From an uncultured Gemmatimonas sp. (GTDB lineage: Bacteria > Gemmatimonadota > Gemmatimonadetes > Gemmatimonadales > GWC2-71-9), in contig CAYTMW010000005.1 in the NCBI GenBank assembly GCA_964439025.1, forward strand, positions 90,671 to 154,670: DNA of 64,000 bases. The letters are read 5' to 3'. Made by a program: the position numbers and the translations under genes. Shown here in pieces: positions 1,068 through 53,618 of this stretch (its first letter is position 1; each line of letters opens with the position of its first letter). The notes beneath the pieces are model-generated. The model was given only the letters and a program-made list of their open reading frames with translations. It did not search any database and was not told the origin of the DNA.

Positions 1068-1139
1068 TGTGACCTGTCACCGGTGACCTGTGACCCGTGC
1101 GGATCGGTACAGGTCACCCGTCACAGGTCACAGGTTACC
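1068..1139. repeat. Inverted repeat built from 7-bp tandem units (TGTGACC x4 / GGTCACA x4)
   Basis: Left arm tgtgacc-tgtcacc-ggtgacc-tgtgacc (1068-1095); right arm ggtcacc-cgtcaca-ggtcaca-ggttacc (1112-1139). Lies between upp and the RNase gene. Confidence 0.85.
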
Positions 1140-1142
1140 ACA

Positions 1143-1787
1143 TTATCTGGTCCCGAAGATCCGGTCTCCCGCGTCACCCAGGCCGGGAAGGATATACCCC
1201 TGCTTGTTGAGCTCGCGATCGAGGGCGGTGCTGAACACCGGCACGGTCGGATGGGCGTTGAGCATCGCCTCGACTCCCTCCGGCGCGGCGACCAGGCACA
1301 GGAAGCGGACCCGCGTGGCGCCGGATTCGCGCAGCTTGGAGACGGCGGCGACCGCCGATCCCCCCGTCGCCAGCATCGGATCGAGCACGAAAAAGTCGCG
1401 ATCGGTTTCGGCGGCCGGCACCTTGAAGTAGTAGCTGACGGGAAGCAGGGTCTCGTGGTCCCGGAAGAGCCCGATATGGCCCACCCGGGCCGACGGAATC
1501 AACTGGGTGATGCCCTCCACCATGCCGAGTCCCGCGCGGAGGATCGGCACGAGGGTAAGCTTCTTTCCGGACACCTTTCGCGCCGTGGTCCGCTCCAGCG
1601 GGGTCTCAATCTCCACCATTTCGGTGGCGAGGTTGCGGGTAACCTCATAGGTCATCAGCATTGCGATCTCGTTCACCAGCTGCTTAAAGTCCTTGACCGG
1701 CGTGGACTTGTCCCTGAGAATCGCCAGCTTGTGTTGGATCAGCGGGTGCTCGAGTACGGTCAGATTGGGGAAGTCGGGGGAATGCAT
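1143..1787 (-). CDS. upp: Uracil phosphoribosyltransferase
   Basis: Motifs HPLIQHKL, VPILRAGLGM, VLDPMLATGGS (PRPP-binding) and YILPGLGDAGDRIFGT. Start placed at the ATG at 1787. Confidence 0.97.
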   Translation of the reverse strand: MHSPDFPNLTVLEHPLIQHKLAILRDKSTPVKDFKQLVNEIAMLMTYEVTRNLATEMVEIETPLERTTARKVSGKKLTLVPILRAGLGMVEGITQLIPSARVGHIGLFRDHETLLPVSYYFKVPAAETDRDFFVLDPMLATGGSAVAAVSKLRESGATRVRFLCLVAAPEGVEAMLNAHPTVPVFSTALDRELNKQGYILPGLGDAGDRIFGTR

Positions 1788-1960
1788 CCGGAAAAGATGC
1801 TGGCAGCGGAGCAACTCGGCTAGTACGGCCGCGGGCCGGGATCGGAGATCCTGGCACCGGGAACCCGGCTGTCACGGGAGCGGATGGAGGATTTTCGCGG
1901 TCTGCCGGGCGGGTACCAAGTTGGTATATTCCCCGGATTCATACTGCCCCGGAGTCATGT

Positions 1961-4129: not shown

Positions 4130-4202
<73 letters not shown>

Positions 4203-4240
4203 TACGCGACCATTCTAACCATACGGTGGTTCGAGTCCAG

Positions 4241-4303
4241 GGAGTAGCGAAGCGCGAAGAGCGAGGAGGATGTTTCCCTTCGCTCCTCGCGTTTCGCGAC
4301 TCC
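4241..4303. repeat. Inverted repeat built from 7-bp units (GCGAAGA-like x3 / TCCTCGC-like x3); possible terminator for the tRNA
   Basis: ggagt-a-gcgaagc-gcgaaga-gcgagga ... ccttcgc-tcctcgc-gtttcgc-g-actcc. Confidence 0.7.
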
Positions 4304-4341
4304 TGAGTCTCGCCGCTTGACGCGCCAGAGGCTGGGACGTA

Positions 4342-4364
4342 CATATATGGTAGTACCATATATG
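4342..4364. promoter_or_regulatory. AT-rich palindrome, putative PadR autoregulatory operator
   Basis: Perfect 11-bp arms CATATATGGTA-g-TACCATATATG just upstream of padR; a TTGACG -35-like hexamer sits at 4317-4322. Confidence 0.65.
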
Positions 4365-19254: not shown

Positions 19255-19304
19255 TTCCGCGGCCAAAGACCCCGTGCCCACGCGCATTCGCTCCGGTGCG
19301 GGGA

Positions 19305-19768
19305 CTGTGGGATCCACAGATTTCACAGACCACACAGATTGGACAGACACAGGAGAAGAGAAGGGATCCTGAGACCTACGCCATCATCGGGGCGGCAATG
19401 GATGTCCACCGGACCCTCGGGCCCGGTTTTCTCGAATTGGTTTATCGGGAAGCATTGGGATTCGAGCTGGCGTTGCGAGGCATTCCGTATGTCCGGGAGA
19501 TCGAAATACCAATCCACTACAAAGGCATACCGTTGGCGGTTCGTGTATCGCGCCGATTGTGTTTATTTCAGGGATGTACTCGTGGAGTTGAAGGCTTTGA
19601 ATCGCCTCACAACCATCGATGACGCGCAGGTCATCAACTACCTAGTCGCGACCAGGCTCGGCCGGGGAATCCCTTTGAACTTCGGACGCACATCCCGTCA
19701 ATACAGACGATTCGCGGGCCCCACCCTCTCTGCCGCTTCTTCATCTGTGCAATCTGTGGATCCCACAG
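19305..19768. mobile_element. Putative GxxExxY cassette bounded by hairpin-ended inverted repeats of 9-bp tandem units
   Basis: CTGTGGGATCCACAGATT (19305-19322) is the exact reverse complement of 19751-19768. The match extends to 24/25 nt, followed by CACAGAnnn units. It encloses only the GxxExxY gene. Mobility is inferred. Confidence 0.6.
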
Positions 19769-19782
19769 ATCGGCGGCTATGA
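19311..19782 (+). pseudogene. GxxExxY protein (PD-(D/E)XK nuclease-like), frameshifted
   Basis: One frame reads [32 protein letters not shown]...IPIHYKG. A +1 shift near 19533-19546 leads to YRADCV...VLVELKA...AQVINYL...LNFG. No clear start codon; the stop overlaps the amidase ATG (ATGA). Confidence 0.85.
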
Positions 19783-21173: not shown

Positions 21174-21190
21174 CCCGCCGCCGAGGCCCG

Positions 21191-23592: not shown

Positions 23593-24741
23593 ATGCCGGT
23601 TCCCACGTTCCACTCCTGTTTCGCGATCACTCCGCCCGGGGTCGAGGGTCTCACCGCCGGAGAGCTCACGCTGCTCGGGATCACCCCCGGTGCCGTCGAG
23701 CCGGGCGGAGTCGGGTTCGATGCGACCGCTCGGCAGCTCTATGCGGCCAATCTCGAGCTCCGGACCGCCAGCCGCATCGTGGTCCGAATCGCCGAATTCC
23801 CGGCTCGCGCGTTTTATGAGCTGGAGCGTAAGGCAAAACGGGTACCCTGGAGTGAGTTCGTTACGCCAGGGACCCCGGTCCGGTTCCGGGTGACGAGCAG
23901 GAAATCACGACTCTACCATCTCGACGCCATCGCGGAACGACTGCAAAACTGCGTCAACGGTCAACGGTCAACGGTCAAAGGGAAAAACCTTGTTGGCGAC
24001 GATCTCGAAGAGGCGGAGGGCGAGAATCCGGACCAGTTATTCAACGTCCGGGTGATCCGCGACGTCATCACCATCAGCGCCGACAGCTCCGGGGCGCTGC
24101 TGCACCGGCGGGGCTACCGGCTCGCCGGCGCCAAGGCGCCGCTGCGTGAAACGCTGGCGGCCGCGATGCTGTTGGGGGCGGGCTATCGCGAGGGCATGCC
24201 GATGGTCGACCCCTTCTGCGGATCGGGGACGCTCCCGATCGAGGCCGCGCTCATCAGCCGGAGGATCGCGCCGGGACTCCGGCGCCGGTTCGCGTTCGAG
24301 AGGTGGCCGAAGTTCGACCCCGCAGTGTGGAACGAGCTCAGGTCAGAGGCTGTCGCGCGGATCCAGGCCGAGGCCCCCGCGCCGATCATCGGCAGCGACC
24401 GGGATGCCGGTGCAATCGCCGCTGCGCGAGGGAATGCGGAGCGGGCCGGGGTCGGGATGGATGTCATATTCAAGGAGGAGGCGATTTCGGGCGTCACGCC
24501 GCCGCCCGGTCCGGGACTCCTCGCCACCAATCCACCCTACGGGATACGGATCGGCGGCGAGCAGGACCTGCGTGACCTCTTTGCCCGATTCGGTGCGCTG
24601 GTCCGGGAGCGCTGGCAGGGGTGGACGGTCGCGATGATTTCGGCCAGCGAGATGCCGGAGCGCGAGATGCGCCTGTCGTTTGCGGTACGCTGGGAATCCA
24701 ACAATGGCGGCATTCCGATCCGCCTCCTCGTCAGCACCTAA
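23593..24741 (+). CDS. THUMP-domain class I SAM-dependent RNA methyltransferase (RlmL N-terminal-like)
   Basis: ANLELRTASRI, DSSG.LLHRRGYR, APLRETLAAA, DPFCGSGT, NPPYG. Confidence 0.92.
   Translation: MPVPTFHSCFAITPPGVEGLTAGELTLLGITPGAVEPGGVGFDATARQLYAANLELRTASRIVVRIAEFPARAFYELERKAKRVPWSEFVTPGTPVRFRVTSRKSRLYHLDAIAERLQNCVNGQRSTVKGKNLVGDDLEEAEGENPDQLFNVRVIRDVITISADSSGALLHRRGYRLAGAKAPLRETLAAAMLLGAGYREGMPMVDPFCGSGTLPIEAALISRRIAPGLRRRFAFERWPKFDPAVWNELRSEAVARIQAEAPAPIIGSDRDAGAIAAARGNAERAGVGMDVIFKEEAISGVTPPPGPGLLATNPPYGIRIGGEQDLRDLFARFGALVRERWQGWTVAMISASEMPEREMRLSFAVRWESNNGGIPIRLLVST
23953..23980 (+). repeat. Heptamer tandem tract GTCAACG x3 + GTCAAAG inside the methyltransferase CDS
   Basis: Read directly; encodes VNGQRSTVK in a linker-like region. 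Confidence 0.8.
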
Positions 24742-26115: not shown

Positions 26116-26120
26116 GGCTC

Positions 26121-32164: not shown

Positions 32165-32170
32165 TCGCCG

Positions 32171-34426: not shown

Positions 34427-34540
34427 AGGAGGCTCCACTGGGTTGGCAATACCACCTCGCCTACCATGCGCAGGAGGGATCGCAAGACCGTCAGAAGCTC
34501 GCGGCGTGCCGGTCGCCCCCCTCGGTGTCATATTCCCTCT

Positions 34541-37332: not shown

Positions 37333-37372
37333 GCTGTGCAAACCCTGCGAACCCGGCCGGCATCACAGTAAC

Positions 37373-39455: not shown

Positions 39456-39500
39456 TTCCCGCCATCTGCTTCGGGTATGTTTCACCCCATTCAGAACTGC

Positions 39501-39599
39501 ATCCACAGATTACCCAGATTGCACCGATTAATTGCGCCGAACATCACATCGAGGTCGGGAACGGGCTGATCTGTGAAATCTGTGAAATCTGTGGATCCC
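39501..39599. repeat. Gene-less inverted repeat of 9-bp units matching the ends of the GxxExxY cassette
   Basis: atc-cacagatta-cccagattg-caccgatta ... gatctgtg-aaatctgtg-aaatctgtg-gatccc. 39579-39599 is the exact reverse complement of 19309-19329. Confidence 0.88.
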
Positions 39600-39652
39600 T
39601 CTGATCGCTCCGAGAAACCGGTGGTCGAGAGTCCCGTGAACGAAGCCAGATC

Positions 39653-44665: not shown

Positions 44666-44798
44666 GGGAAAGCTCCGGGACCGGATTGTTTGAAGTTTAA
44701 CAGATACCGGGTTTTGCGGTGAGGGTCAATGGCGCTTGTCCCGCCTTGGTGTCAGTGACGTAGATTGATACACCACAACAAGTTGGGTGGTTGTGACA

Positions 44799-46745
44799 AT
44801 GATCCCAAGACGACTCTTTTGCTTCCTGCCCCTCCTCTGCTACCCACCGTTCGGGCTCGCGGCCCAGTCCCCCGATTGGCCGGCCTATGGGCGCGATCGT
44901 GGCGGGGAGCGATTCTCCCCACTCAAGGTCATCGACCGGGGCAATGTGGTCCGCCTTGCCGTGGCCTGGGAGTACACTACGGGGGAGGCAAGAATTCCGA
45001 TGGAGCAGTCGGTTTCGCTCGAGACAACCCCGCTCGTCCTCGGTGGCGTGATGTATCTCAGTACACCGCTGGGACGCGTGGTGGCGCTCGATCCCGAAAC
45101 GGGGAAGGAGCGCTGGGTGACCGACCTCGAGGTGAAGCCGGTCGACTTCGGCGATTTCACTACCCGCGGCGTCAGCCTTTGGACCGATTCCCGGGTGCGC
45201 CGGGGAACGCGTTGCGCGACTCGCGTGATCGTCGCCACGGTCGATGCGCGCCTGCACGCGCTGGATGCCGCGGACGGCCGCCGCTGTCCCGACTTTGCGA
45301 AGGGCGGTAGCGTCGACCTCCGTCAGGGGCTGCGCAACGCGCCCTTCGAAACCGAGGAATACGAGGTCACCTCGCCACCCGCCATCGTGAACGGGTTGAT
45401 CGTCGTGGGGTCCGGTGTCGCCGACAACAACCGGACCGACGCGGCGAGCGGCGAAGTGCGCGCCTTTGACGCCCGCACCGGTCAGCTGCGCTGGAGTTGG
45501 GACCCGGTACCGCAGGATACGACCGAGCTGGCGTGGCGCACCTGGACCGGTCCCGCCGCGCACCGCACCGGCGCCGGCAACGCCTGGTCCATCATCGGCG
45601 TCGACTCGGCGCGGAACCTCGTGTTCGTGCCGACCAGCAGTCCGAGTCCCGACTACTTCGGCGGGGAGCGCCTGGGCGAGAATCGCTATGCGAACTCGAT
45701 CGTGGCGCTCAACGCACGGACCGGCAAGGTCGTGTGGCACTTCCAAACAGTGCACCACGATCTCTGGGACTACGACAACGCCTCGCCGCCGGCGCTCACC
45801 ACGCTGGTTCGGAGGGGGAGCCGGGTCCCGGTGATTCTCCAGGCAACCAAAACGGGCCAGCTCTTCGTGCTCGACCGGAGAAGCGGCGCGCCGGTTTTTC
45901 CGGTCGAGGAACGGGCGGTTCCCGCGAGTACGATTCCCGGCGAGCAGGCGTCGCCCACCCAGCCCTTCACGACGGTCATCGCTCCGCTCAGTCCCCACCG
46001 GTTCTCCGCCGCGGACGCGTGGGGACCCACGCCAGCCGACCAGGCGGCCTGCCGCGCCAAAATGGAAACGCTGCGCAACGAGGGGATCTTCACCCCGCCG
46101 AGTCTCGAGGGGACGCTGGTGATGCCGTCCAACATCGGTGGCGCCCACTGGGGTGGCGTCGCGGTGGATCCGGTGCGGCAGATCGCCGTCGTGCCGGTGA
46201 ACAGAATTGCGGCGGCGGTGCAGCTCATTCCCCGCGAGGAATACCGCCGTCGCCGGAACGAGCCGGGGTACCGGCGCTCGGGGTCGCAGTACACCGACAT
46301 GCGCGGCACGCCGTACGTCATGCGCCGGGAGCTGCTTCTCGGACCGGCGGGAGCGCCGTGCACTCCGCCCCCGTTCGGCGCGCTGGTGGCGATCGATCTC
46401 TCGACCGGAGTCCGGAAGTGGGAGGTCCCCCTCGGCACGTTCGCGCCCGACGCTCCGGCCGCTGCGCGGAGCTGGGGAAGCCCCAACCTCGGCGGCCCGA
46501 TCGTCACCGCCGGCGGGCTGGTGTTCATCGCGGCCACACTCGACCAGCGCCTGCGCGCGTATGACATCGAAACGGGCGAAGAGCTCTGGAGTGCCACGCT
46601 CCCGGCCGGCGGGAAGGCGACGCCGATGACCTATCGGGGGAGAAGCGGAAAGCAGTATGTGGTGATTGCGGCGGGTGGGGACGGGGGACGGTTTGGGAAG
46701 AGCGACCGGGTGGTGGCGTTTGCGCTGGAGGCAAAGCGGCAATGA
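44799..46745 (+). CDS. PQQ-dependent dehydrogenase (glucose/quinate/shikimate family, soluble form)
   Basis: DWPAYGRD, RFSPL, TSPP, HHDLWDYD, GPIVTAGGLVF, ATPMTY, GKQYVVIAAGG. Confidence 0.92.
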   Translation: MIPRRLFCFLPLLCYPPFGLAAQSPDWPAYGRDRGGERFSPLKVIDRGNVVRLAVAWEYTTGEARIPMEQSVSLETTPLVLGGVMYLSTPLGRVVALDPETGKERWVTDLEVKPVDFGDFTTRGVSLWTDSRVRRGTRCATRVIVATVDARLHALDAADGRRCPDFAKGGSVDLRQGLRNAPFETEEYEVTSPPAIVNGLIVVGSGVADNNRTDAASGEVRAFDARTGQLRWSWDPVPQDTTELAWRTWTGPAAHRTGAGNAWSIIGVDSARNLVFVPTSSPSPDYFGGERLGENRYANSIVALNARTGKVVWHFQTVHHDLWDYDNASPPALTTLVRRGSRVPVILQATKTGQLFVLDRRSGAPVFPVEERAVPASTIPGEQASPTQPFTTVIAPLSPHRFSAADAWGPTPADQAACRAKMETLRNEGIFTPPSLEGTLVMPSNIGGAHWGGVAVDPVRQIAVVPVNRIAAAVQLIPREEYRRRRNEPGYRRSGSQYTDMRGTPYVMRRELLLGPAGAPCTPPPFGALVAIDLSTGVRKWEVPLGTFAPDAPAAARSWGSPNLGGPIVTAGGLVFIAATLDQRLRAYDIETGEELWSATLPAGGKATPMTYRGRSGKQYVVIAAGGDGGRFGKSDRVVAFALEAKRQ

Positions 46746-46800
46746 GGCAAAGAGGCAAAGAGGCAAGGTTCTTTCCTTTGCCTCCTTGCCACGTTGCCTC
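46728..46800. repeat. Inverted repeat built from 8-bp units (GAGGCAAA x5 / TTTGCCTC x3)
   Basis: gaggcaaa-gcggcaat-gaggcaaa-gaggcaaa-gaggcaag ... tttgcctc-cttgccac-gttgcctc, between convergent genes. Confidence 0.88.
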
Positions 46801-46805
46801 CGACC

Positions 46806-49553
46806 TCAGCGATTAAACCAGAAATTGACCTTCACCAGAAAAATGTTGTCTGAATTCGCATCGAACAACGCGTCGGCGTCGCGCCCGAGCTCAAAATTGC
46901 CGATCAGCTGACCGAAGTGGCTGCTGGTCCGGGTCCACACCAGGAAGAGCGTCGAACCAGGGCGGTACTCCCACCGCAGCACCGCATTGCCGCGCAGCGA
47001 CCGGAGATTGAAATCGGGGTTGGGCTGGTTGAGGACCGCCGCCGGGCCCGCCCCATCGGGGTCGATCGCGTAGCTCTCCAGCTCGCCCTCTGCATTCCGG
47101 ATCTCGGTCACCGTGCCGACCTCCTCCCCGAACACCCGGATCGCCTGGCCGCGCGGCACCACGAACTCCTTGAACCGAGTAAAGTGCACGCTGGAGATGA
47201 ACGGCTGGGCGAACAGCTCGAAGGTGAGCGTGGGTGTGAAGGTCATGTTCATCCGGGTATCGAAGCCGACGGTCTTCTGCTTGAGGTCGGCGAAGAGGTA
47301 GCGCTTCCCGTAGAAGGCCGCCGCTTCCGGATCGGAGAAGGTGTTGACGTACTGCCGGGCGCCCCTGCTGTAGTTGTAGCTCGGCTCGAAGGAGACCGAG
47401 ATGTTCGAGGCGGCGCGCAGATTCACCCCCCCAAAGATCCCGTAGCTCTTGTATCCCTCGTCGGTGCGGCTCAACGTGGAATTCATGTTGAAGTTGATAC
47501 GCTTGCGCGAATCGGTCGCCACGAAAACCGAATAGAACATGTTGCCCGGACGCCCGACGACCGGCCCGCCGCGGGTGGCCCGGTCGTCATAGGTGTCGGT
47601 GCGGCGGATGACGAACGCATCTAACCGCCAGTAGTTGAGCAGCTGGCCGAACGCTCCGGTGTGGACCTGGGTGTCGGTGCGGTCGCCGTCGAAGTTGTAC
47701 TCCCACTGGCTCCCGACGATCACGAAAAAATTCCGGTACCACTTGGTCGGCCGGGCGAGCGAGAGCGCGAGGTTCCCGTTCATCCAGGCGTAGTCGGCCC
47801 GGGTGTTGAAGGCGAGGTCGTTGGCCTCGAAGCCCGGCGTCCGCCAGTTGACCGCCGTCTCGAACAGCCACTTGCCGGCGTCTTTGGCGAGCCGGGAATA
47901 GCCGCCCATTCCGCGGAGGCGGGTGGCATCCGGATCGTACCGGTCTGAAAGGAACCCGTTGCCTCCGCCCTGCCGGTCGGGACGCTGGAAGTACCGCGCG
48001 CTCGAGAGCTGCAGCCGGTTGATCGCGGCGGCGTCGCCGGAGTTGTTGGTGAACGCCATGTTGCCGACGAAGGAGTAGGTCTGGTTCCTCCACCGGGCGC
48101 TCCAGTCGAACCCGGCCGCTTCCGAATGGGAGTTGAGCCGGGACTTGAGCAGGGGCTCATCGGTGGATCTGACGACCGAGGTCATCATCCCTCCGAATAC
48201 GAGGTTGCCGCGGTTGAAGTCCTTCTTCAGCCGGCCCACAAAGTAGTTGGTGAGGGGCTCCACCTCGTGGCTGACATCCTGGCCACCGACGCGCGCCGTG
48301 GCGTGTTCGCGCGCGGTGACGGCATCAAGCACGCCGATAGTAAAGCCGTTCCTGGTGCGGCCGGTGACCTTTGCCGCGCCCAGGATGGTGGAGGCGTCCG
48401 GGCTGTCGGCATAGCTCGTCCCCTGGGGTGTGGGGCCCTGGGGTGCCCGGCCGATCCGGCGGGTGTAGAACAGCGAGAGCGATGACACGTTGCTGCAGAA
48501 ATAGCAGCTGAACCCCCCGAACCCAAACGTGCCGCTGCCTTCCACGAAAAACGGACGCCGCTCAGGGAAAAAGGTCTCGAAGGCGGAGAGATTCACCACT
48601 GCGGGGTCCACTTCGACCTGCCCGAAGTCCGGGTTGATCGTCGCGTCGAGCGTGACGTTCGAGGTGAGCAGGTATTTCATATCCGCCCCGAAGCGGGTAT
48701 CGGCGTCGCGCTCCTTGTAGAACGGATTGCCCGGGTCAGCCGCCGGCTGCAGCCGCTGATAGCGCCCGACGACATAGGGGAGAACCTCGAGGCGGCGGGT
48801 GGCGCTTCGGCCCGGCGCGATTCCGTCGATATGGCCGAACCGGGACGGCCCTCCCGACTCATCGGGTCCCCAGTAGGACCACATCGAGATTTCGTTCAGC
48901 CGGCTCTGGGTGCGCCAGACCTGCATACCCCAGGCCTGCACCGAATCTCGCGGGAACCGCAGCTGGGAGAACGGAATCCGGAACTCGGCGCTCCAGCCGA
49001 GGGAGTCGATCTGGGTCTTCACTTCCCAGACCGGATCCCAGGAGGGATCGGCGAATTCGGTTGCCTGTCCGGCATCCTGGCGCGAGCCCGAGGGCGCCAC
49101 GCTGAATATCGTGCGCCCGATGTGATTGTGGTACGTATCGAAGATCAGCTCGATCAGATCGCTGTTGCTGGCGAACTGGTCGCGCCGCACCAGCTGGCTT
49201 CGGACTCCCGCGGCGCCCTGATCGTCGAACATTCGTGCTCCTACGTAGATCGCGTCATCATCGAAGAGCAGCTTGATCTCGGTTCGCTGCGTCGCCGCGT
49301 CTCCGGGCTTCGGCTGAGCCTGCCGAAAACCGGAGGCCGGCTCGACGGTGCTCCACGCCGGATCGTCGAGCCGACCATCGAGCGTGACGTCGGAGGTCCG
49401 GCGTCCGGCCACGACGGTCGGTGACGGGATCGCATGGGCGGCCGCTCCATGCAACGCGGTGGGCGCGCTGCTGGTCGCGCCGGTTTGGGCCAGAAGGTTC
49501 CCGGAGACGGCGAAGAGCAGCAAAGCCAGCGCAGGGGCGCGGAACGGCAACAT
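46806..49553 (-). CDS. CBM9-like/DUF5916 outer-membrane protein
   Basis: LDGRLDD..W, W.AEFRIPFSQLRF, TINPDFGQVEVD, FFPERRPFF, LRWEYRPGSTLFLVW; signal peptide. Confidence 0.88.
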   Translation of the reverse strand: MLPFRAPALALLLFAVSGNLLAQTGATSSAPTALHGAAAHAIPSPTVVAGRRTSDVTLDGRLDDPAWSTVEPASGFRQAQPKPGDAATQRTEIKLLFDDDAIYVGARMFDDQGAAGVRSQLVRRDQFASNSDLIELIFDTYHNHIGRTIFSVAPSGSRQDAGQATEFADPSWDPVWEVKTQIDSLGWSAEFRIPFSQLRFPRDSVQAWGMQVWRTQSRLNEISMWSYWGPDESGGPSRFGHIDGIAPGRSATRRLEVLPYVVGRYQRLQPAADPGNPFYKERDADTRFGADMKYLLTSNVTLDATINPDFGQVEVDPAVVNLSAFETFFPERRPFFVEGSGTFGFGGFSCYFCSNVSSLSLFYTRRIGRAPQGPTPQGTSYADSPDASTILGAAKVTGRTRNGFTIGVLDAVTAREHATARVGGQDVSHEVEPLTNYFVGRLKKDFNRGNLVFGGMMTSVVRSTDEPLLKSRLNSHSEAAGFDWSARWRNQTYSFVGNMAFTNNSGDAAAINRLQLSSARYFQRPDRQGGGNGFLSDRYDPDATRLRGMGGYSRLAKDAGKWLFETAVNWRTPGFEANDLAFNTRADYAWMNGNLALSLARPTKWYRNFFVIVGSQWEYNFDGDRTDTQVHTGAFGQLLNYWRLDAFVIRRTDTYDDRATRGGPVVGRPGNMFYSVFVATDSRKRINFNMNSTLSRTDEGYKSYGIFGGVNLRAASNISVSFEPSYNYSRGARQYVNTFSDPEAAAFYGKRYLFADLKQKTVGFDTRMNMTFTPTLTFELFAQPFISSVHFTRFKEFVVPRGQAIRVFGEEVGTVTEIRNAEGELESYAIDPDGAGPAAVLNQPNPDFNLRSLRGNAVLRWEYRPGSTLFLVWTRTSSHFGQLIGNFELGRDADALFDANSDNIFLVKVNFWFNR

Positions 49554-49642
49554 TGTCGACCTCATCGGGGACCTGGCTTGTGTCTCGGGTCAATTGGACC
49601 TACGAGCGTTCGATGCCAAAAGTCTCGAAACCGTTGCCTGTT

Positions 49643-49706
49643 GCTGGGTGTTGGGGACTGGGTGCTGGGGGCTGGGGACCGGCAGGACTGAAGACTGAAG
49701 ACTGCT
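49643..49706. repeat. Single-armed heptamer tracts (RCTGGGK x5-6, then GACTGAA x2-3)
   Basis: gctgggt-gttgggg-actgggt-gctgggg-gctgggg-accggca, then gactgaa-gactgaa-gactgct. Confidence 0.78.
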
Positions 49707-49792
49707 CGACTGGAATCACACCTTCGGCGAGGTTATCTTTCACGGCTGAATAGAGTTACGGGTTCCGCCGTTCCGGGATGGTCGGCAGGTCC

Positions 49793-49820
49793 CATTCACT
49801 GTTGACCGTTCACCCTCCAC
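49793..49820. repeat. Degenerate heptamer tract (CGTTSAC-like x4) upstream of efp
   Basis: cattcac-tgttgac-cgttcac-cctccac; its reverse complement resembles the GTCAACG unit at 23953. Confidence 0.5.
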
Positions 49821-49827
49821 GGTGTCT

Positions 49828-50394
49828 ATGGGCATCATCGCCAGCGATATCCGCCGCGGCATGGCCATCATGTTCAATGGCGAGCCCTGTCGTGTGCTCG
49901 AGTTCCATCACCACACCCCGGGCAACCTCCGGGCGATGGTGCAGGCCAAGCTTCGGCGTCTCAAGACGGGAACTCAGGTCGAGCACCGCTTCCGTTCCAC
50001 CGACACGGTGGAGATCGCCGCGCTGGAGACCCACGAGCTCGATTTCATGTACAAGAGCGGCGACACCTACCACTTCATGAATGCCGAGAACTACGACCAG
50101 CTCGAAGTCGACGGCGAAACCCTCGGCGAGACCGCCAAGTGGATGTCCGAGGGCATGCGGATCATCGCCGAGTTCTACCAGGGCCGGCCGATCGGCATCC
50201 AGATGCCCAGCAGCCTCACCTTCGAAGTCGCCGACACCACCCCGGTCATGAAGACCGCGACCAAGACCTCGTCCCCCAAGCCGGCCCGGCTGAGCAACGG
50301 GGTGACGGTGAACGTGCCCGAGTTCATTCAGACCGGCGAGCGGATCCGGGTGAATCCGGAGACGGGGGAGTATCTGGATAGGGCGAAGGACTAG
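49828..50394 (+). CDS. efp: Translation elongation factor P
   Basis: H.TPGNLRAMVQ.KL, FMNAENYDQ, KPA.LSNG..V.VPEFI..GE.IRV, Y..R. Confidence 0.93.
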   Translation: MGIIASDIRRGMAIMFNGEPCRVLEFHHHTPGNLRAMVQAKLRRLKTGTQVEHRFRSTDTVEIAALETHELDFMYKSGDTYHFMNAENYDQLEVDGETLGETAKWMSEGMRIIAEFYQGRPIGIQMPSSLTFEVADTTPVMKTATKTSSPKPARLSNGVTVNVPEFIQTGERIRVNPETGEYLDRAKD

Positions 50395-50395
50395 C

Positions 50396-50492
50396 GATCA
50401 GAGGTCAGTGATCAGGGGTCAGGGTGGTCGTTGGGCCGGCAGAGATGCCGGCCCTGATTCTTTCCCTGACCACTGATCACTGACCCCTTGCC
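50396..50492. repeat. Inverted repeat of 7-bp units (GRTCAGN x4 / NCTGAYC x3-4) enclosing a hairpin
   Basis: gatcaga-ggtcagt-gatcagg-ggtcagg ... cctgacc-actgatc-actgacc-ccttgcc. Confidence 0.87.
50433..50464 (+). terminator. Probable intrinsic terminator of efp
   Basis: Perfect 9-bp stem GGGCCGGCA-GAGA-TGCCGGCCC followed by tgattctttc. Confidence 0.55.
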
Positions 50493-50546
50493 CTTTGAAA
50501 CCTGCCGAGCGACAATCCCGTATCACCAATACCTAGACCGTCGAGG
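50488..50546 (+). promoter_or_regulatory. Candidate sigma70 promoter and PadR operator
   Basis: TTGCCC-17 bp-GACAAT (50488-50516) and the imperfect palindrome CCTAGA-ccg-TCGAGG (50532-50546), 7 bp before the padR ATG. Confidence 0.5.
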
Positions 50547-50553
50547 CAACACC

Positions 50554-50889
50554 ATGCCCGGCCCCGATACCGACCTCCTCCAGGGCACCCTGGACGTGCT
50601 CATCCTCAAGACGCTCTCCTGGGGGTCGCGGCACGGATATGCCATCGCCCGTTGGCTCGAGGATTCGAGTGCCGAAGCGATCCGCATCGAAGAAGGCTCC
50701 CTCTATCCCGCGCTCTATCGCATGGAACGGAAGGGGTGGATCGAGGCCTCGTGGGGCATGTCCGAGCTCGGGCGGCGGGCCAAGTTCTACGAGCTCACCA
50801 CCGCGGGACGCGCGCGACTTCGGGCGGAGATCTCCGCCTGGCGCCGGCTCAGCGGCGCGGTCGGCCGCATCCTCGAAGCGCGGGGCTAG
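50554..50889 (+). CDS. PadR family transcriptional regulator (ADOP-associated type)
   Basis: DLLQGTLDVLILKTL, HGYAIA, EEGSLYPALYR, RRAKFYELT. Confidence 0.94.
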   Translation: MPGPDTDLLQGTLDVLILKTLSWGSRHGYAIARWLEDSSAEAIRIEEGSLYPALYRMERKGWIEASWGMSELGRRAKFYELTTAGRARLRAEISAWRRLSGAVGRILEARG

Positions 50890-50895
50890 CGGCAA

Positions 50896-53550
50896 ATGTC
50901 CTGGCCCTTCTGGAAACCGACGCTGACCCGCGAAGTGGACGAAGAGCTGGAATTCCATGTGGAGATGCGCGCGCGCGAACTGATGTCCCGGGGCATACCG
51001 GCGTCCCAGGCGCTGGCTCTGGCGCGTCAGCGTCTCGGAGACTCCGATCAACTCCGGCGCACGCTGCGCCGGGTCGGCAAGGAAAGGGATCGCACCATGC
51101 GACGCACCGAGCGGCTCGCCGAGCTGCGGCAGGATCTCGCCTATGGATTCCGCACCCTGGCGCGAAATCCCGGCTTCACCGCTATCGCCCTTCTCACGCT
51201 CGGTGTGGGGATCGGCGCGACCACCGCGATCTTCAGCGCCGTCAATACCGTGATCCTCCGGCCGCTGGCGGTGCCGGACGTCGAGCGGGTGATGCTGATC
51301 GCCGAGTTGTATGAGGGCCGTCCGGCGGACGTCTCGGTCGGCAACTTCGTGGACTGGCAAGCCGCCAATGAGGCGCGGCCGATGTTTGCCGCCATGGGCG
51401 CGATCAACTGGCGCAACTTCACCCTCGCCGGTGAGCAACCGGAACGGGTCCTGGGCGCAGCGGTCACCGCCGACTACTTCGGCGTGATGGGTGTGTCTCC
51501 CCTTCGCGGACGGGTCTTCACCGCGGAGGAGGATCGCCCCGGCGGGGCCCGGGTCGTCGTGCTGGGAAACCGTCTCTGGCAGCGGCGCTTCGGCACCGAC
51601 CCGTCTGCCGTCGGACGGGTGATCACCCTCAATGGGCTTCCGCACACGGTGCTCGGCGTGATGCCCGCCTCCTTCGATTTCACCAACGGCACCGAGGATC
51701 TCTGGGTGCCGGCGGCCTTCACCCCCGAGCAGCGGGCCCAGCACGACGAACACTATCTCACCGTCTATGGGCGGCTGCGCCCCGGATCGACGCCCGAGGC
51801 GGCGCGATCGATGCTGGCGGAGGTGCAGCGGGTCCTGAACGAGCGTTACCGGAATGCCAACGGAAACCGATCGGTACACATCGAGCCAATGATGCGGCAA
51901 TTCATCGGCGACGCGCGGGGCCAGCTTCTGGTGATCCTGGGGGCCGTCGTGCTGGTGCTGCTGATCGCCTGCGCCAACGTGGCCAACCTTCTCCTCGCGC
52001 GGGGGGCGGCGCGGGGGCGCGAGCTGGCCATCCGCGCGGCGATCGGCGCGGGCAGCGCGCGTCTGGTGCGCCAGCTCCTCGCCGAGAGCGGCGCACTCGC
52101 CCTTGCGGCGGCGGTCGTGGGGATGGCGGTGGCCTGGGGGGTGATTCGCACGCTGGTCGCGGCGGCTCCGCCGGGCGTGCCGCGCATCGAGCAGGCCCGC
52201 CTCGACTTCGCCGCGCTGGGGTTCGCGGTGCTCCTGGCCCTGGGCTCGACACTGCTATTCGGCCTGGCACCGGCGCTCCGCACGGCGCGCACCGACCTGG
52301 TAGGCGCGCTTCGGACCGGCCAGGCGCGAGCGATGGGTTCGCGGCGCGACTGGTTCCGCCAGGGACTGGTGACGGCGGAGGTGGCGCTCGCGCTGGTGCT
52401 CCTGGTAGGCGCCGCCCTCCTGGTCCGAACGGCGATCCATCTGCAGCGTCTCGATCCCGGCTTCGATCCCCGCGGCGTGGTCACCGCGCGCATTGCTCTG
52501 CCGGCGGAGAGCTATGCCAGCCCCGAATCAGCGCGGCGGGCCTTCGAGACCGTTCTGGAAAACCTCGCCGCATCGCCAGGCGTTCGGAGCGCCGCGCTGT
52601 CCACCCAGGTGCCGATGGGCCCCGGCGGCGGCAGCAACGGGCTGGTCCCCGAGGGAAAGCCGCCCGGCCCCGAGAGCGCGGTGGACGCACGGATGCGCCT
52701 GGTGTCGCCGGGCTATATCGGCACCATCGGCCTCCCGCTTCGCCGCGGGCGCGACTTCTCGGGCGATGATCGGGCCGGGGCGCCCCGCGCCATGTTGGTG
52801 AACGAAGCCCTGGCGCGGGCCCTGTTTCCCGGTCAGGATCCGATCGGCAAGCGGGTGCTCTGCTGCGAGGGAGCAGCCGACGACCCGCGCTGGAAGACCA
52901 TCGTGGGCGTGGTCGGAGATGCCCGCTCGCGGGGTCCCGATCAGGAGGTGGTGCCGGAGTTCTTCATGCCGATCGCCCAGGCGCCCGACGTCGCGTGGAA
53001 CTGGATCGGCCGGACGATGAGTGTGGTTGCCCGCGCCGATGGAGATCCGCTGTCCCTTGCACCGGCGATGCGTGAGGCACTCCGCCGGGTGGATCCCTCG
53101 CTGCCGCTCTACCGGATCGAGACCCTGGAGTCCTCCCTGTCCAACGCCCTGGCCCCGGCGCGATTCCGCAGCGTGCTGCTGGGCTCGCTCGCCGCGATCG
53201 GGCTCCTGCTCGCCCTGGTCGGGATCTACGGCGTCATCGCGTACCTGGTCACCCGCCGGCGCGGGGAGATCGGAGTGCGAATGGCGCTCGGAGCCTCCTC
53301 CGGCGACGTGCTGCGAATGGTGGTAGGACAAGGACTCAGGCCGGTCCTTGCCGGAACCGCGCTCGGCGCACTCGGCGCTTTGGCGGCGACGCGGCTGCTC
53401 GCGACGTGGCTCCGAGGTGTGTCGCCCGGAGATCCGGTAACCTTCGCAGCGGTCGCGCTGTCGCTGATCGGTGTCGCGGCACTGGCGAGTCTGATTCCGG
53501 CCCGACGAGCGACCAAGGTGAGTGCGCTGGAGGCGATGCGGGCGGAGTAG
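50896..53550 (+). CDS. ABC permease, ADOP-type duplicated MacB/FtsX permease
   Basis: EVDEELEFH prefix, QDLAYGFRTL, LIACANVANLLLAR, EIGVRMALGA, PARRATKV. Confidence 0.94.
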   Translation: MSWPFWKPTLTREVDEELEFHVEMRARELMSRGIPASQALALARQRLGDSDQLRRTLRRVGKERDRTMRRTERLAELRQDLAYGFRTLARNPGFTAIALLTLGVGIGATTAIFSAVNTVILRPLAVPDVERVMLIAELYEGRPADVSVGNFVDWQAANEARPMFAAMGAINWRNFTLAGEQPERVLGAAVTADYFGVMGVSPLRGRVFTAEEDRPGGARVVVLGNRLWQRRFGTDPSAVGRVITLNGLPHTVLGVMPASFDFTNGTEDLWVPAAFTPEQRAQHDEHYLTVYGRLRPGSTPEAARSMLAEVQRVLNERYRNANGNRSVHIEPMMRQFIGDARGQLLVILGAVVLVLLIACANVANLLLARGAARGRELAIRAAIGAGSARLVRQLLAESGALALAAAVVGMAVAWGVIRTLVAAAPPGVPRIEQARLDFAALGFAVLLALGSTLLFGLAPALRTARTDLVGALRTGQARAMGSRRDWFRQGLVTAEVALALVLLVGAALLVRTAIHLQRLDPGFDPRGVVTARIALPAESYASPESARRAFETVLENLAASPGVRSAALSTQVPMGPGGGSNGLVPEGKPPGPESAVDARMRLVSPGYIGTIGLPLRRGRDFSGDDRAGAPRAMLVNEALARALFPGQDPIGKRVLCCEGAADDPRWKTIVGVVGDARSRGPDQEVVPEFFMPIAQAPDVAWNWIGRTMSVVARADGDPLSLAPAMREALRRVDPSLPLYRIETLESSLSNALAPARFRSVLLGSLAAIGLLLALVGIYGVIAYLVTRRRGEIGVRMALGASSGDVLRMVVGQGLRPVLAGTALGALGALAATRLLATWLRGVSPGDPVTFAAVALSLIGVAALASLIPARRATKVSALEAMRAE

Positions 53551-53618
53551 GAGTTGGGAGGTGGGAGTTGGGGGTTGGGGTTTTGTCCCCTAATCCCCAG
53601 CTCCCACCTCCCAACCCC
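53550..53618. repeat. Inverted repeat built from 7-bp units (GGAGTTG x4 / CAACTCC-like x4)
   Basis: ggagttg-ggaggtg-ggagttg-ggggttg ... taatccc-cagctcc-cacctcc-caacccc, filling the whole gap between convergent genes. Confidence 0.88.

What the first reader, a model, noticed from the sequence alone, without database searches (positions are those of the whole stretch)
1068..53618. Window-wide family of palindromes sharing one architecture but different 7-9 bp units
Seen: seven elements with 2-5 degenerate tandem units, a spacer, then the reverse-complement units. They are at 1068 (TGTGACC), 4241 (GCGAAGA), 19305 and 39501 (CACAGATTN), 46728 (GAGGCAAA), 50396 (GRTCAGN) and 53550 (GGAGTTG). Single arms occur at 23953, 49643 and 49793. 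All two-armed copies lie just after a gene 3' end, roughly one per 9 kb. Architecture is conserved while sequence is not, so similarity-based repeat finders would miss the family. Established: cyanobacterial STRR heptamers look similar and have no agreed origin. Inference: each unit type is the signature of a different small-gene cassette (GxxExxY for 9-mers; possibly four-helix-bundle/IVS-type genes for 7-mers), and the empty forms have been co-opted as RNA hairpins.
Basis: partly seen in the sequence, partly recalled or inferred. Interest (0 to 1): 0.75.

Follow-up and report, generated by a model that had tools for sequence, protein, structure and literature searches.

The report
Tandem-armed hairpins and a nuclease cassette
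Seven hairpin-forming palindromes built from short tandem units sit directly behind genes in this window, and two of them are the conserved ends of a small nuclease-gene cassette that turns up, built the same way, in bacteria of many phyla.

Summary
All seven two-armed palindromes are real and far beyond chance. All seven lie at a gene or tRNA 3' end.

They are probably not one family. The two 9-mer elements (19305, 39501) belong to a sequence-conserved element. It has three 9-10 bp units with core C(A/G)CAGAT, preceded by TCC, inverted around a GxxExxY / PDDEXK_3 nuclease gene. In 80 loci whose record titles name at least ten phyla, 72 of 79 testable genes carry such arms. 212 of 247 arrays have exactly three units. 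51 of 65 cassettes start within 60 nt of the stop of a co-oriented ORF. The window's copy is dead (one extra base, no start codon). 39501 is a gene-less pair of arms.

The five 7-8-mer hairpins have units not shared with other genomes sampled. They look like fast-turnover 3'-end hairpins made in place.

The four-helix-bundle link is not. A link between unit type and gene type holds in modified form: distant GxxExxY subfamilies carry other units.

The closest working analogue is REPIN-RAYT. I found no description of the cassette in print.

The parts
1068..1138 (-). E1: hairpin with arms of about four TGTGACC units (1068-1099 and 1109-1138). It lies directly after the upp stop (1143-1145, minus strand) and before the start of the beta-CASP gene (1055).
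   Evidence: 0 of 300; I5, I6, I15. Fold -48.0 kcal/mol, z -6.0 on the upp strand; -42.1 on the other strand. Gene context.
4240..4304 (+). E2: hairpin with three (A/C)GCGA(A/G)G units per arm, 38 nt after tRNA-Phe (4130-4202) and before padR.
   Evidence: 4 of 300. Fold -52.3, z -7.9 on the plus strand; -43.9 on the minus strand. The unit core resembles the CGCGAAGN arms of the Sphingomonas cassette L085. That likeness could be chance.
19305..19771 (+). E3: decayed GxxExxY cassette. The left arm 19310-19341 has three units (CACAGAT, CACAGAC, CACAGAT). The right arm 19737-19771 has two ATCTGTG units, then GGATCC and one outward unit.
   Evidence: The arms pair in the MFE and centroid fold of 19296-19780. 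The arms match the cross-phylum consensus aTCC-CRCAGATTn x3.
19371..19710 (+). GxxExxY / PDDEXK_3 pseudogene. Frame A (19371-19535) matches Pfam profile positions 3-57 and frame B (19543-19710) matches positions 60-116. There is one extra base at 19545. There is no ATG/GTG/TTG where homologues start (ACC in place of ATG before ACA CAG ATT).
   Evidence: BLASTP to P0004: residues 9-72 at 81% in frame A, residues 73-133 at 72% in frame B. Homologue N-termini.
39501..39596 (.). E4: gene-less pair of CRCAGAT arms (39501-39528 degenerate, 39569-39596 perfect x3) with a 40-nt spacer. It lies between the stop at 39455 and the start at 39653.
   Evidence: 5 of 300; I2. Fold -41.9 on the plus strand and -41.7 on the minus strand.
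46727..46801 (.). E5: hairpin of GAGGCAAA 8-mers (about five units on the left, three on the right). The left arm includes the last codons and the stop of the PQQ dehydrogenase gene (stop at 46745). The convergent DUF5916 gene stops at 46806.
   Evidence: 0 of 300; I4, I9.
50396..50490 (+). E6: arms of G(A/G)TCAGN heptamers (50400-50424 and 50464-50488), 2 nt after the efp stop.
   Evidence: 0 of 300; I3. Fold -67.0 (z -7.6) on the plus strand and -68.4 on the minus strand.
50433..50454 (+). Inner GC-rich 9-bp hairpin followed by TGATTCTTTC, nested in the spacer of E6. It is the only convincing canonical terminator-like site in 36001-56000.
   Evidence: 2 terminator-like sites found, 9.8 expected from shuffles.
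53550..53618 (.). E7: hairpin of GGAGTTG heptamers that fills the gap between the ADOP stop (53548-53550) and the convergent NagX stop (53620). The conserved ADOP end GCG GAG TAG reads as a unit with one mismatch.
   Evidence: 0 of 300; I1. Fold -65.1 (z -8.5) on the plus strand and -58.9 on the minus strand. C-termini of the three ADOP genes are ..RRE*..RAE*..RAE*.
49644..49704 (+). Single-armed arrays (TGGGGAC-type x4, GACTGAA x2.7) in the divergent region between the DUF5916 gene start (49565) and efp (49822). No inverted partner.
   Evidence: 213 and 70 of 300.
23953..23978 (+). GTCAACG x3.7 array without a partner. It lies in frame inside the RlmL/K-like ORF, so it is not an intergenic element.
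   Evidence: NF008748 aligned over residues 8-379 of the ORF 23593-24741; 32 of 300.

Best explanation
The seven palindromes share a build and a parking place (the first bases after a stop codon), but they are most likely two kinds of thing.

(A) E3 and E4 belong to a sequence-conserved element.
- Each arm is TCC followed by three 9-10 bp units with core C(A/G)CAGAT.
- The arms are inverted around a small PD-(D/E)XK nuclease gene (GxxExxY, PF13366).
- The whole sits directly behind the stop codon of a co-oriented host gene, often inside an operon.
- Shown: the architecture, its conservation across many phyla, its placement, purifying selection on the gene at one long-held locus, gene-less arm pairs, and the fact that these resemble the cassette arms of their own genome.
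- Inferred: the three units per arm are binding sites for the nuclease encoded between them.
- Inferred: gene-less pairs such as E4 are non-autonomous copies made or kept by that nuclease, or remnants left when direct arms recombine ('><G<' to '><'). The system would then work like REPINs with their RAYT.
- E3 is a dead copy (one extra base, start codon lost).

(B) E1, E2, E5, E6 and E7 are lineage-specific hairpins whose units are not shared with the other genomes sampled.
- Inferred: they arise and turn over in place at gene 3' ends. Slippage makes the tandem units, and copying between the two arms of a hairpin (template switching) keeps them mirrored. They grow until they meet coding sequence.
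- Inferred: they serve as 3'-end hairpins (termination or transcript stability) in a genome that has almost no canonical terminators.
For: For (A).
- The window ORF matches TIGR04256 (43 bits, cut-off 35). It matches PF13366 in two frames (60.6 and 45 bits, cut-off 22).
- 8 of 15 fetched homologues carry termini that translate the arms.
- 72 of 79 testable genes in 80 loci score above the 99th percentile of 740 same-geometry controls. Observed median is 21; control median 9, control maximum 15.5. The loci were fetched by a peptide pattern, not by the arms.
- There are 247 arrays in 1.21 Mb against 2-6 in shuffles. 212 have exactly three units. Spacing is 9 nt (343 cases) or 10 nt (122 cases).
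- The commonest layout is '>G<', in 44 of 81.
- Linkers between units hardly co-vary between the arms (0.67 against 0.56 permuted; 0.48 against 0.41), while cores are 0.91-0.97 identical. The repeat ends at TCC. That is the pattern of a recognised motif, not of a selected stem.
- Solo arms resemble their own locus's cassette arms: mean fractional rank 0.235, n=30, p=1e-4, single best in 9 cases. L008 shares a derived GGCAGAT unit.
- 51 of 65 cassettes lie within 60 nt of the stop of a co-oriented ORF of 150 aa or more, against 59 of 769 random positions.
- 6 of 6 annotated plasmid cases are co-oriented with both neighbours, for example fabD-gene-fabG and radA-gene.
- 9 of 80 loci place the cassette between gltB and gltD. 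All 9 ORFs are intact, with median dN/dS 0.095 over the 24 of 36 pairs with finite dS.
- Orthologous cassettes differ by gain or loss of an arm plus spacer.
- No 3-6 bp target duplication in 71 cassettes.

For (B).
- None of the window's 7/8-mer units occurs exactly among 482 arrays of the other loci.
- At one orthologous site, two species have a two-armed AGTCCAA hairpin, a third has a one-armed CTCCGAA array (the same two changes in every unit), and a fourth has no repeat.
- E7's first unit is the conserved ADOP end plus its stop codon, and E5 includes its stop codon.
- 29 of 40 such hairpins in 1.28 Mb have an ORF of 150 aa or more ending at an edge, against 90 of 575 random sites.
- Departures from the unit consensus are mirrored in the other arm at 80 of 137 positions.
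- Canonical terminator-like sites are at or below shuffle expectation: 7 against 9.2, and 2 against 9.8.
Against: - No binding or cleavage has been shown. The protein-site reading rests on conservation patterns alone.
- In the only sample not tied to the index gene, the one long-spacer CRCAGAT pair (L018 4496-4834) encloses a 98-aa ORF of no family, not a GxxExxY gene.
- Only 1 of 6 exact-motif solo pairs has a long ORF ending at its edge.
- The split into two kinds may be false. CACAGAG-type and GCGAAG-type units, seen elsewhere as gene-less hairpins (L012, L026, window E2), flank distant GxxExxY genes.
- 5-mers shared by three or more 7/8-mer hairpins number 25, against 6.9 in shuffles. This is partly inflated by syntenic loci.
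- E6-like RATCAGT units flank a DUF2267 gene in L079.
- An RNA role has no support from strand asymmetry (11 against 11, 2 ties).
- With two outlier loci removed, the mirrored-variant signal is modest (41 against 32 against 12).
- Gene calls in the loci were crude stop-to-stop ORFs.
Confidence: 0.5

Rival explanations
1. One system after all. Every tandem-armed hairpin, 7- and 8-mers included, is a satellite or footprint of a small-gene cassette. Each unit type is cognate to its own gene, mostly GxxExxY subfamilies.
For: - Distant GxxExxY genes carry other units in the same three-unit inverted layout: CRCAGAGGA (L087, score 22.5), CGCGAAGN (L085, 20.5) and CACAGAG (L084, 18).
- Gene-less CACAGAG(G) hairpins exist in L012 and L026.
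- E2 has three GCGA(A/G)G units per arm, like L085.
- Unit 5-mers recur between genomes: 25 against 6.9 expected.
- In L079 two RATCAGT hairpins flank a DUF2267 gene.
Against: - Of 40 non-CRCAGAT hairpins, only 2 long-spacer versions were seen, and neither holds a GxxExxY gene.
- No window 7/8-mer unit recurs exactly in 482 arrays elsewhere.
- 7/8-mer copy numbers vary from 3 to 7.7, unlike the fixed three units.
- The orthologous-site comparison shows change in place.
- E7's first unit is the host gene's own conserved end.
- The E2-L085 likeness rests on a 6-mer and could be chance.
Confidence: 0.25
2. Homing rather than REPIN-like spread. The GxxExxY nuclease cuts gene-less arm pairs. Repair from a filled copy, using the two arms as homology, drops the gene into the spacer. 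Under this reading E4 is a target site, not a product.
For: - '>G<' is the commonest layout, with the gene exactly between the arms (44 of 81).
- No target duplication.
- The family has the PD-(D/E)XK fold, with D...E-x-K kept in the alignment. That some homing endonucleases have this fold is recalled, not tested.
Against: - The cassette has stayed between gltB and gltD across nine genomes, under purifying selection.
- Only 8 of 72,556 plasmids and 0 of 50,697 phage records carry a relative.
- Layouts such as '><G<' and '><G><' do not follow from insertion into a spacer.
Confidence: 0.12
3. RNA-level element like an rRNA intervening sequence. The arms exist to form a long stem in the host transcript around the small ORF. 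That stem is processed (for example by RNase III) or gates translation of the hitch-hiking gene. Gene-less pairs and the 7/8-mer hairpins are plain terminators or stabilisers.
For: - The arms pair in the fold of the whole E3 transcript.
- Cassettes are co-oriented with, and abut, the upstream gene, so they are probably read through.
- In close homologues the start codon lies in the third left unit.
- All short elements fold strongly.
Against: - A stem needs pairing, not sequence. Yet the core is conserved across phyla while the linkers barely co-vary.
- No sense-strand bias in stability.
- No U tracts.
- No rRNA in the window or in the 7 loci tested.
Confidence: 0.1
4. Chance, or an ordinary by-product. 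Unrelated slippage tracts happen to lie next to unrelated terminators, or the elements are assembly artefacts.
For: - Short tandem arrays without partners are common in this GC-rich window (22 of 31).
Against: - Shuffles give 0.03 partnered arrays at score 14 or more, against 7 observed.
- The top six inverted repeats of the window are all tandem-armed.
- The same build recurs in 80 independent assemblies.
Confidence: 0.02

Closest known systems
REP / REPIN elements with their RAYT gene (Bertels and Rainey 2011, PMC3116915: abstract and passages read)
   Same: - A single small nuclease-type gene is flanked by its own short repeats in inverted orientation.
- Gene-less inverted doublets that fold as hairpins are scattered in extragenic space.
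- Clusters of alternating repeats occur (L017, L025).
- Satellites match the resident gene's repeats.
- The gene is kept at one locus under purifying selection.
- There is no target duplication.
   Different: - The gene is a PD-(D/E)XK protein (PF13366), not a Y1 / IS200-type transposase.
- Each arm is three tandem 9-10 bp motifs, not one imperfect palindrome.
- The cassette is parked right behind a co-oriented stop codon.
- Copy number per genome is unknown.
- Mobility has not been shown.
Inverted pairs of GGGAATC heptamer repeats in Xanthomonas (Rehm et al. 2015, PMC4692102: passages read)
   Same: - Tandem heptamers occur as convergent pairs on opposite strands that can form stem-loops (70 and 75 pairs in two genomes).
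- They are mostly intergenic.
- Length varies between related species while the type (single or paired) is kept.
   Different: - Xanthomonas has one G-rich unit genome-wide, read by those authors as quadruplex-forming. Here each hairpin has its own unit.
- That paper reports no link to stop codons or to a flanked gene, in the passages I read.
Cyanobacterial STRR heptamers (recalled; the primary papers were not seen; only use of STRR for fingerprinting appears in the listing)
   Same: - Short tandem heptamers in intergenic DNA, of unknown origin.
   Different: - The organism here carries Acidobacteria-type markers.
- The units differ.
- The defining feature here is the mirrored second arm.
Intervening sequences of 23S rRNA that carry a small ORF between stem-forming inverted repeats (recalled, not read)
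   Same: - A small ORF sits between inverted repeats inside a host transcript.
   Different: - No rRNA is involved.
- The ORF is PDDEXK_3, not the four-helix-bundle family.
- The arms are motif arrays.
Intrinsic (Rho-independent) terminators
   Same: - A GC-rich hairpin lies directly after a gene. The inner hairpin of E6 fits the type.
   Different: - The stems are 25-35 bp, made of tandem units, with no U tract.
MITEs
   Same: - Short, non-coding, with terminal inverted repeats and related to a gene-bearing form.
   Different: - No target-site duplication in 71 cassettes.
- No transposase of a known IS family.

Membership tests
GxxExxY protein / PDDEXK_3 (TIGR04256, PF13366) | Profile score above the curated cut-off | tested here: met
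   TIGR04256 scores 43 bits against a cut-off of 35. PF13366 scores 60.6 bits (N part) and 45 bits (C part) against a cut-off of 22. P0004, 81% identical to the N part, scores 120.9 bits.
GxxExxY protein / PDDEXK_3 (TIGR04256, PF13366) | Intact reading frame with a start codon | tested here: not met
   The two halves are in different frames, with one extra base at 19545. No start codon sits where homologues have ATG. The window copy is a pseudogene, or carries a sequencing error at two places.
GxxExxY protein / PDDEXK_3 (TIGR04256, PF13366) | PD-(D/E)XK catalytic D ... E-x-K | tested here: met
   D76, E86 and K88 of P0004 are at least 90% conserved in alignment A1. The window reads YRAD ... 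VELK. That these are the catalytic residues is taken from knowledge of the superfamily, not from an assay.
CRCAGAT-armed GxxExxY cassette (defined here) | TCC plus three units with core C(A/G)CAGAT at 9-10 nt spacing, inverted on both sides of the gene | tested here: met
   E3 has a left arm of three units and a right arm of two units. E4 has 3 + 3 without a gene. The consensus comes from 212 three-unit arrays.
CRCAGAT-armed GxxExxY cassette (defined here) | Placed within 60 nt after the stop of a co-oriented gene | tested here: met
   The E3 left arm starts about 50 nt after the stop at 19254 of a co-oriented ORF. The family figure is 51 of 65.
REPIN-RAYT system | The flanked gene is a RAYT (Y1 transposase of the IS200/IS605 type) | tested here: not met
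   The gene is PF13366. No transposase family matched.
REPIN-RAYT system | Inverted repeat doublets that form hairpins, dispersed in extragenic space and over-represented | tested here: inconclusive
   40 arrays (about a dozen '><' pairs) lie more than 1 kb from a gene in 1.21 Mb, against 2-6 arrays in shuffles. Genome-wide numbers were not obtainable.
REPIN-RAYT system | Repeat family matched to its own gene within a genome | tested here: met
   The own-locus cassette ranks at 0.235 (0.5 is random), n=30, p=1e-4. The two arms of one pair are not independent.
Intrinsic terminator | Short GC-rich stem followed by a run of U | tested here: not met
   None of the seven is listed by the scan. Only the inner hairpin of E6 is. 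20001-36000 and 56001-64000 were not scanned.
MITE / classical IS end | Target-site duplication flanking the terminal inverted repeats | tested here: not met
   Direct matches of 4-6 nt at offsets 2-6 number 0-1 of 71, as in permutations.
23S rRNA intervening sequence | Located inside an rRNA gene | tested here: not met
   Rfam at gathering score finds only tRNA-Phe in the window and nothing in 7 loci.
   There is no such gene in the window, and I had no query sequence from a tool. The two long-spacer 7-mer pairs seen by chance enclosed a DUF2267 gene or no ORF.

The most novel reading that the evidence does not exclude
GxxExxY (PDDEXK_3) proteins, a family of unknown function with members in many phyla, are the engines of a repeat system of their own.
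- Each subfamily recognises a three-unit arm of its own sequence (CRCAGAT, CRCAGAG, CGCGAAG, ...).
- Each keeps itself parked behind a host stop codon inside operons.
- Each seeds the genome with gene-less tandem-armed hairpins.

On this reading all seven palindromes of the window, 7- and 8-mers included, are satellites of such nucleases. Heptamer repeat pairs in Xanthomonas and STRR-like repeats would have the same kind of origin.
Probability: 0.2. Interest if true: 0.85.

Novelty: new variant of a known kind. Interest (0 to 1): 0.68.

Why it matters
PF13366 / GxxExxY is a large family with no known function. It is listed as 'Unknown' in the 2012 survey of the PD-(D/E)XK superfamily (PMC3424549, passage read).

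A fixed DNA partner and a fixed parking place give that family a testable job. The partner is three C(A/G)CAGAT units on each side. The parking place is directly behind a co-oriented stop codon. This would be a second kind of nuclease-plus-repeat partnership beside REPIN-RAYT.

It also bears on the old question of where short tandem intergenic repeats (STRR, Xanthomonas heptamers) come from. The question becomes approachable by a simple genome-wide count of unit types against cognate genes.

For annotation, it explains the odd N- and C-terminal tails (MTQIG.., ..SVQSVKSVDP) of many predicted GxxExxY proteins. They are translated repeat arms.

Tried and rejected
- rRNA intervening sequence. Strong cross-phylum synteny of the flanks suggested rRNA. 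Rfam found none in 7 loci. The flanks are gltB and gltD.
- Sense-strand G-U bias as a sign of RNA function. E1, E2 and E7 looked biased. Over 24 one-sided hairpins there is none.
- Register-shift test to separate motif arrays from mirrored arms. It was not informative for the 9/10-mers because of mixed spacing.
- Crude greedy gene caller for the context of hairpins. It mislabels known window cases, for example E1 as 'inside'. I replaced it with stop-to-stop ORF ends and random-site controls.
- Solved structures by sequence. There were 0 matches to the A1 profile at E up to 1.
So there is no fold comparison of the nuclease.
- Elhai et al. 2008 on small dispersed repeats in Nostoc is not held. 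What it says about heptamer tracts stays unread.
- Literature searches that found nothing on the cassette:
  - 'GxxExxY': 3 papers held, 2 listed. One passage was read; it is about a gene next to a reverse transcriptase.
  - 'PDDEXK_3' / 'PF13366': 2 papers.
  - IVS-protein terms with repeat terms.
  - Six 17-nt arm strings: 0 papers.
  - GGGAATC follow-ups: only the 2015 paper.
- Not searched: the 1.7 million PMC articles readable only by id, and subscription journals.
- Not checked: metagenome contigs and viral contigs (closed); the rest of the source genome; the curated comment of the NCBIfam model.

Full report
WHAT THE WINDOW IS. The window has 64-71% G+C. It carries two PadR(acidobacterial type)-ADOP permease pairs and a third ADOP gene, so it is most likely from an acidobacterium or a close relative. 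I did not try to name it further. My working gene map came from third-position G+C, NCBIfam and Pfam. It holds one tRNA-Phe and no other Rfam family at gathering score.

The seven elements read as described. Tandem Repeats Finder lists their arrays among 54 rows.
- I took the 31 merged arrays of period 6-10 and aligned each one's reverse complement to its own 700-nt flanks, against 300 random 1400-nt pieces of the window. No random piece reached the observed score for E1, E5, E6 and E7. Four to six of 300 did for E2, E3 and E4. The other 22 arrays, mostly inside ORFs, have no partner.
- Thirty dinucleotide shuffles in 2-kb blocks gave on average 7.8 arrays, 0.47 with a partner score of 12 or more, and 0.03 with 14 or more. 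The real window has 27, 10 and 7.
- The six best-ranked short-range inverted repeats of the window are all these elements.
- Each short element folds into a long stem: -42 to -68 kcal/mol, z from -3.4 to -9.2, with 0 of 200 shuffles as stable.
- All seven lie at a 3' end: upp, tRNA-Phe, the cyclase-like gene, the DUF4097 gene, PQQ dehydrogenase / DUF5916 (convergent), efp, and ADOP / NagX (convergent).
- Canonical terminator-like sites are at or below expectation in the 40 kb scanned: 7 against 9.2 and 2 against 9.8. The only good one is the small hairpin nested inside E6.
- Of the 'single arms', 23953 is in frame inside the RlmL/K-like ORF, 49644-49704 is real and intergenic, and 49793 is too weak for TRF.

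THE 9-MERS ARE THE ENDS OF A GXXEXXY CASSETTE.
- Between the arms of E3 lies a PDDEXK_3 / GxxExxY gene in two frames. Pfam profile positions 3-57 are in one frame and 60-116 in the other.
- Against the closest full-length homologue P0004, residues 9-72 match frame A (81%) and residues 73-133 match frame B (72%). So there is one extra base at 19545.
- The codon where homologues start is ACC.
- The closest homologues from other sources are about 150 aa. They begin M(T/A/P)QIG.. and end ..SVQSVKSVDP. These are the last left unit and the right units read in frame. 8 of the 15 I fetched show this.

I then fetched 80 loci through a peptide pattern inside the protein (IIGAAM[EDM][VA]H), so the arms played no part in the choice.
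- The record titles name Acidobacteriota, Gemmatimonadota, Chloroflexota, Planctomycetota, Verrucomicrobiota, Pseudomonadota, Bacteroidota, Nitrospirota, Nitrospinota, Thermodesulfobacteriota, Armatimonadota and others.
- I aligned the left flank to the reverse complement of the right flank. 72 of 79 testable genes scored above the 99th percentile (13.0) of 740 random same-geometry controls. Two genes had too little flank.
- The arms are almost always ATCC(A/G)CAGATTN x3 ... NAATCTG(C/T)G x3 GGAT.

ANATOMY OF THE FAMILY.
- With one mismatch allowed, the loci hold 247 arrays: 31 with two units, 212 with three, 4 with four. Spacing is 9 nt (343 cases) or 10 nt (122 cases). Block-shuffled loci gave 2, 6 and 4 arrays.
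- The commonest layout is arm-gene-arm (44 of 81, truncated loci included). Variants carry an extra arm or a whole gene-less pair beside the gene ('><G<' 8, '><G><' 4, '>G><' 3). There are clusters of up to eight alternating arms in L017.
- Forty arrays, about a dozen gene-less pairs, lie more than 1 kb from the gene.
- The inverted repeat ends at TCC. Within a cassette the unit cores are 0.91-0.97 identical between arms. The linkers hardly exceed permuted pairings: 0.67 against 0.56, and 0.48 against 0.41, in 57 cassettes.
- No 3-6 bp target duplication flanks 71 cassettes.
- A motif kept across phyla, a fixed number of three, a helical-turn spacing and free linkers together point to recognition by a protein, not to a selected stem. 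This is inference.
- The arms will still pair by their cores. The fold of the whole E3 transcript pairs them.

WHERE IT SITS AND HOW IT IS INHERITED.
- In 51 of 65 cassettes with enough flank, a co-oriented ORF of at least 150 aa ends within 60 nt upstream of the first unit, mostly 1-20 nt. At random positions the figure is 59 of 769.
- Nine loci place it between gltB and gltD: eight that are syntenic with Verrucomicrobiota and one labelled Isosphaeraceae.
- All nine ORFs are intact. Median Nei-Gojobori dN/dS is 0.095 over the 24 of 36 pairs with finite dS. dS is near saturation, so the figure is rough.
- Among these orthologous cassettes, some are '>G<' and some '><G<'. They differ by an arm plus 60-110 nt of unconserved spacer.
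- Only 8 of 72,556 plasmid records and no phage record hold a relative.
- In the six annotated plasmid or chromid cases the gene is co-oriented with both neighbours, for example fabD-gene-fabG, radA-gene and ade-gene.
- So this is a long-held, selected, chromosomal hitch-hiker in operons, not ordinary cargo of mobile replicons.

GENE-LESS PAIRS BELONG TO THE RESIDENT CASSETTE.
- Each of 30 solo arms was scored against the cassette arms of all 75 loci. The own locus ranks at 0.235 on average (0.5 if random, p=1e-4). It is the single best in 9 cases. L008 shares a derived GGCAGAT unit between cassette and solo. The two arms of a pair are not independent, and base composition may help.
- This is what one expects if solos are copied from, or co-evolve with, the resident gene's arms.
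- Direct arms on both sides of the gene ('><G<') also offer a simple route from a filled to an empty form by recombination. This is inference.
- Extrapolating roughly from the flanks and the window (one solo in 64 kb), a genome would hold tens of pairs. This is not measured.

OTHER UNIT TYPES ALSO GO WITH GXXEXXY GENES. The eight plasmid-borne relatives are only 32-50% identical to P0004. Their flanks read as follows:
- Three have inverted tandem arms with other cores. Bacteroides L087 has C(A/G)C(A/G)GAGGA x3 (score 22.5). Sphingomonas L085 has CGCGA(A/G)GN x3 (score 20.5). Bernardetia L084 has CACAGAG (score 18).
- Gemmatirosa L083 has a CGCGGAT pair after the gene.
- Treponema L082 has a one-unit inverted repeat.
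- L086 and L088 have direct repeats.
- L081 has nothing clear.

Gene-less CACAGAG(G) hairpins with three units occur in L012 and L026. The window's E2 has three GCGA(A/G)G units per arm. The likeness to L085 rests on a 6-mer and may be chance.

THE 7- AND 8-MER HAIRPINS. In 1.28 Mb (the window plus 80 loci) the array-plus-partner pipeline found 146 pair records. After removing CRCAGAT types and merging, 40 short-spacer hairpins remain, with very varied units.
- 29 of 40 have an ORF of at least 150 aa ending within -40 to +25 nt of an edge, against 90 of 575 random sites.
- Several arrays run into the ORF end.
- In the window, E7's first unit is the conserved ADOP terminus GCG GAG TAG, one mismatch from GGAGTTG. 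E5 contains its stop codon. E5 and E7 fill the whole gap between convergent stops.
- None of the window's units recurs exactly among 482 arrays elsewhere. One-mismatch hits are few.
- At one orthologous Verrucomicrobiota site, L036 and L041 have a two-armed AGTCCAA hairpin. L024 has a one-armed CTCCGAA array with the same two changes in every unit. L029 has no repeat. That is concerted change in place.
- Where the left arm departs from its own unit consensus, the right arm mirrors the change at 80 of 137 positions, returns to consensus at 36, and has another base at 21. Without L016 and L026 the counts are 41, 32 and 12.
- Only two long-spacer 7-mer pairs were seen. L079 is in fact a DUF2267 gene between two RATCAGT hairpins. 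L021 holds no ORF.
- Against a purely local origin, 5-mers shared by three or more hairpins number 25 against 6.9 in shuffles. Syntenic and clustered cases inflate this.
- Against a proven RNA role, the sense strand is more stable in 11 cases, less stable in 11, and equal in 2.

VERDICT. The finding is real and richer than stated. It mixes two things.
- First, a conserved, apparently undescribed cassette: a GxxExxY nuclease with three-unit arms, which works most like REPIN-RAYT but fails that family's defining test because the gene is not a RAYT.
- Second, fast-evolving tandem-armed 3'-end hairpins. Their nearest published relatives are the inverted GGGAATC pairs of Xanthomonas (PMC4692102, passages read).

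Whether the second kind are satellites of the first cannot be settled from this window. A genome-wide census would settle it.

Searches for the cassette in print found nothing. That covers only the open library named in those calls. What the NCBIfam curators wrote about TIGR04256 I could not see, and my memory of it is too vague to use.

Noticed in passing
window 4342-4364: A perfect palindrome with 11-nt arms (CATATATGGTA g TACCATATATG) lies about 10 nt before the padR start at 4374. It is a likely operator of the PadR-ADOP pair. No like palindrome is obvious before the second padR (about 50554).
   Followed up: no
window 23953-23978: A perfect GTCAACG x3.7 heptamer array lies in frame inside the RlmL/K-like methyltransferase ORF (reads ..VNGQRSTVK..). 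It could change length only in steps of three units without breaking the frame.
   Followed up: partly
window 49644-49704: A G-rich TGGGGAC-type array has four runs of three to five G, in the divergent region between the DUF5916 gene and efp. It has the form that Rehm et al. tested as quadruplex-forming. The adjacent GACTGAA x2.7 array shares CTGA..A with the right arm of E6, on the other side of efp.
   Followed up: no
window 50433-50454: A canonical terminator-like hairpin is nested in the loop of the heptamer-armed E6. Similar nesting of one tandem-armed hairpin inside another occurs in L009 11674-11820 (8-mer arms around a 7-mer palindrome).
   Followed up: partly
L017 9590-9912 and 5657-5805; L025 9583-10980: Clusters of up to eight or ten alternating CRCAGAT arms lie next to the GxxExxY gene. 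They are reminiscent of REPIN clusters / BIMEs.
   Followed up: partly
L018 4496-4834: Three-unit CRCAGAT arms enclose a 98-aa hydrophobic ORF of no Pfam or NCBIfam family instead of a GxxExxY gene. So the arms can hold other cargo.
   Followed up: partly
L079 8209-9057: A DUF2267 gene (minus strand) lies between two heptamer hairpins with RATCAGT units, like the units of window E6.
   Followed up: partly
L018 15896-16048 and L056 3822-3897: The same 9-mer unit, CGCCAAGGA-like, with three to four units per arm, forms strong hairpins in a Phycisphaeraceae contig and an Ardenticatenia contig. It may be a further cassette-type unit family.
   Followed up: no
L033 (title names Bifidobacteriaceae): This contig is syntenic at 76-85% nucleotide identity with the Verrucomicrobiota gltB-cassette-gltD loci. 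Its taxonomic label is probably a binning error.
   Followed up: no
window 3-1055 (minus strand): A beta-CASP metallo-beta-lactamase ribonuclease has its best NCBIfam rows as type VII Cas14 and aCPSF1, both far below their cut-offs. No CRISPR feature is nearby.
   Followed up: no
window 19305-19320 and 19752-19771: Both ends of E3 carry GGATCC with an outward-facing extra unit (CTGTGG-GATCC-ACAGAT). This makes a small terminal palindrome that is not part of the cross-phylum consensus.
   Followed up: no
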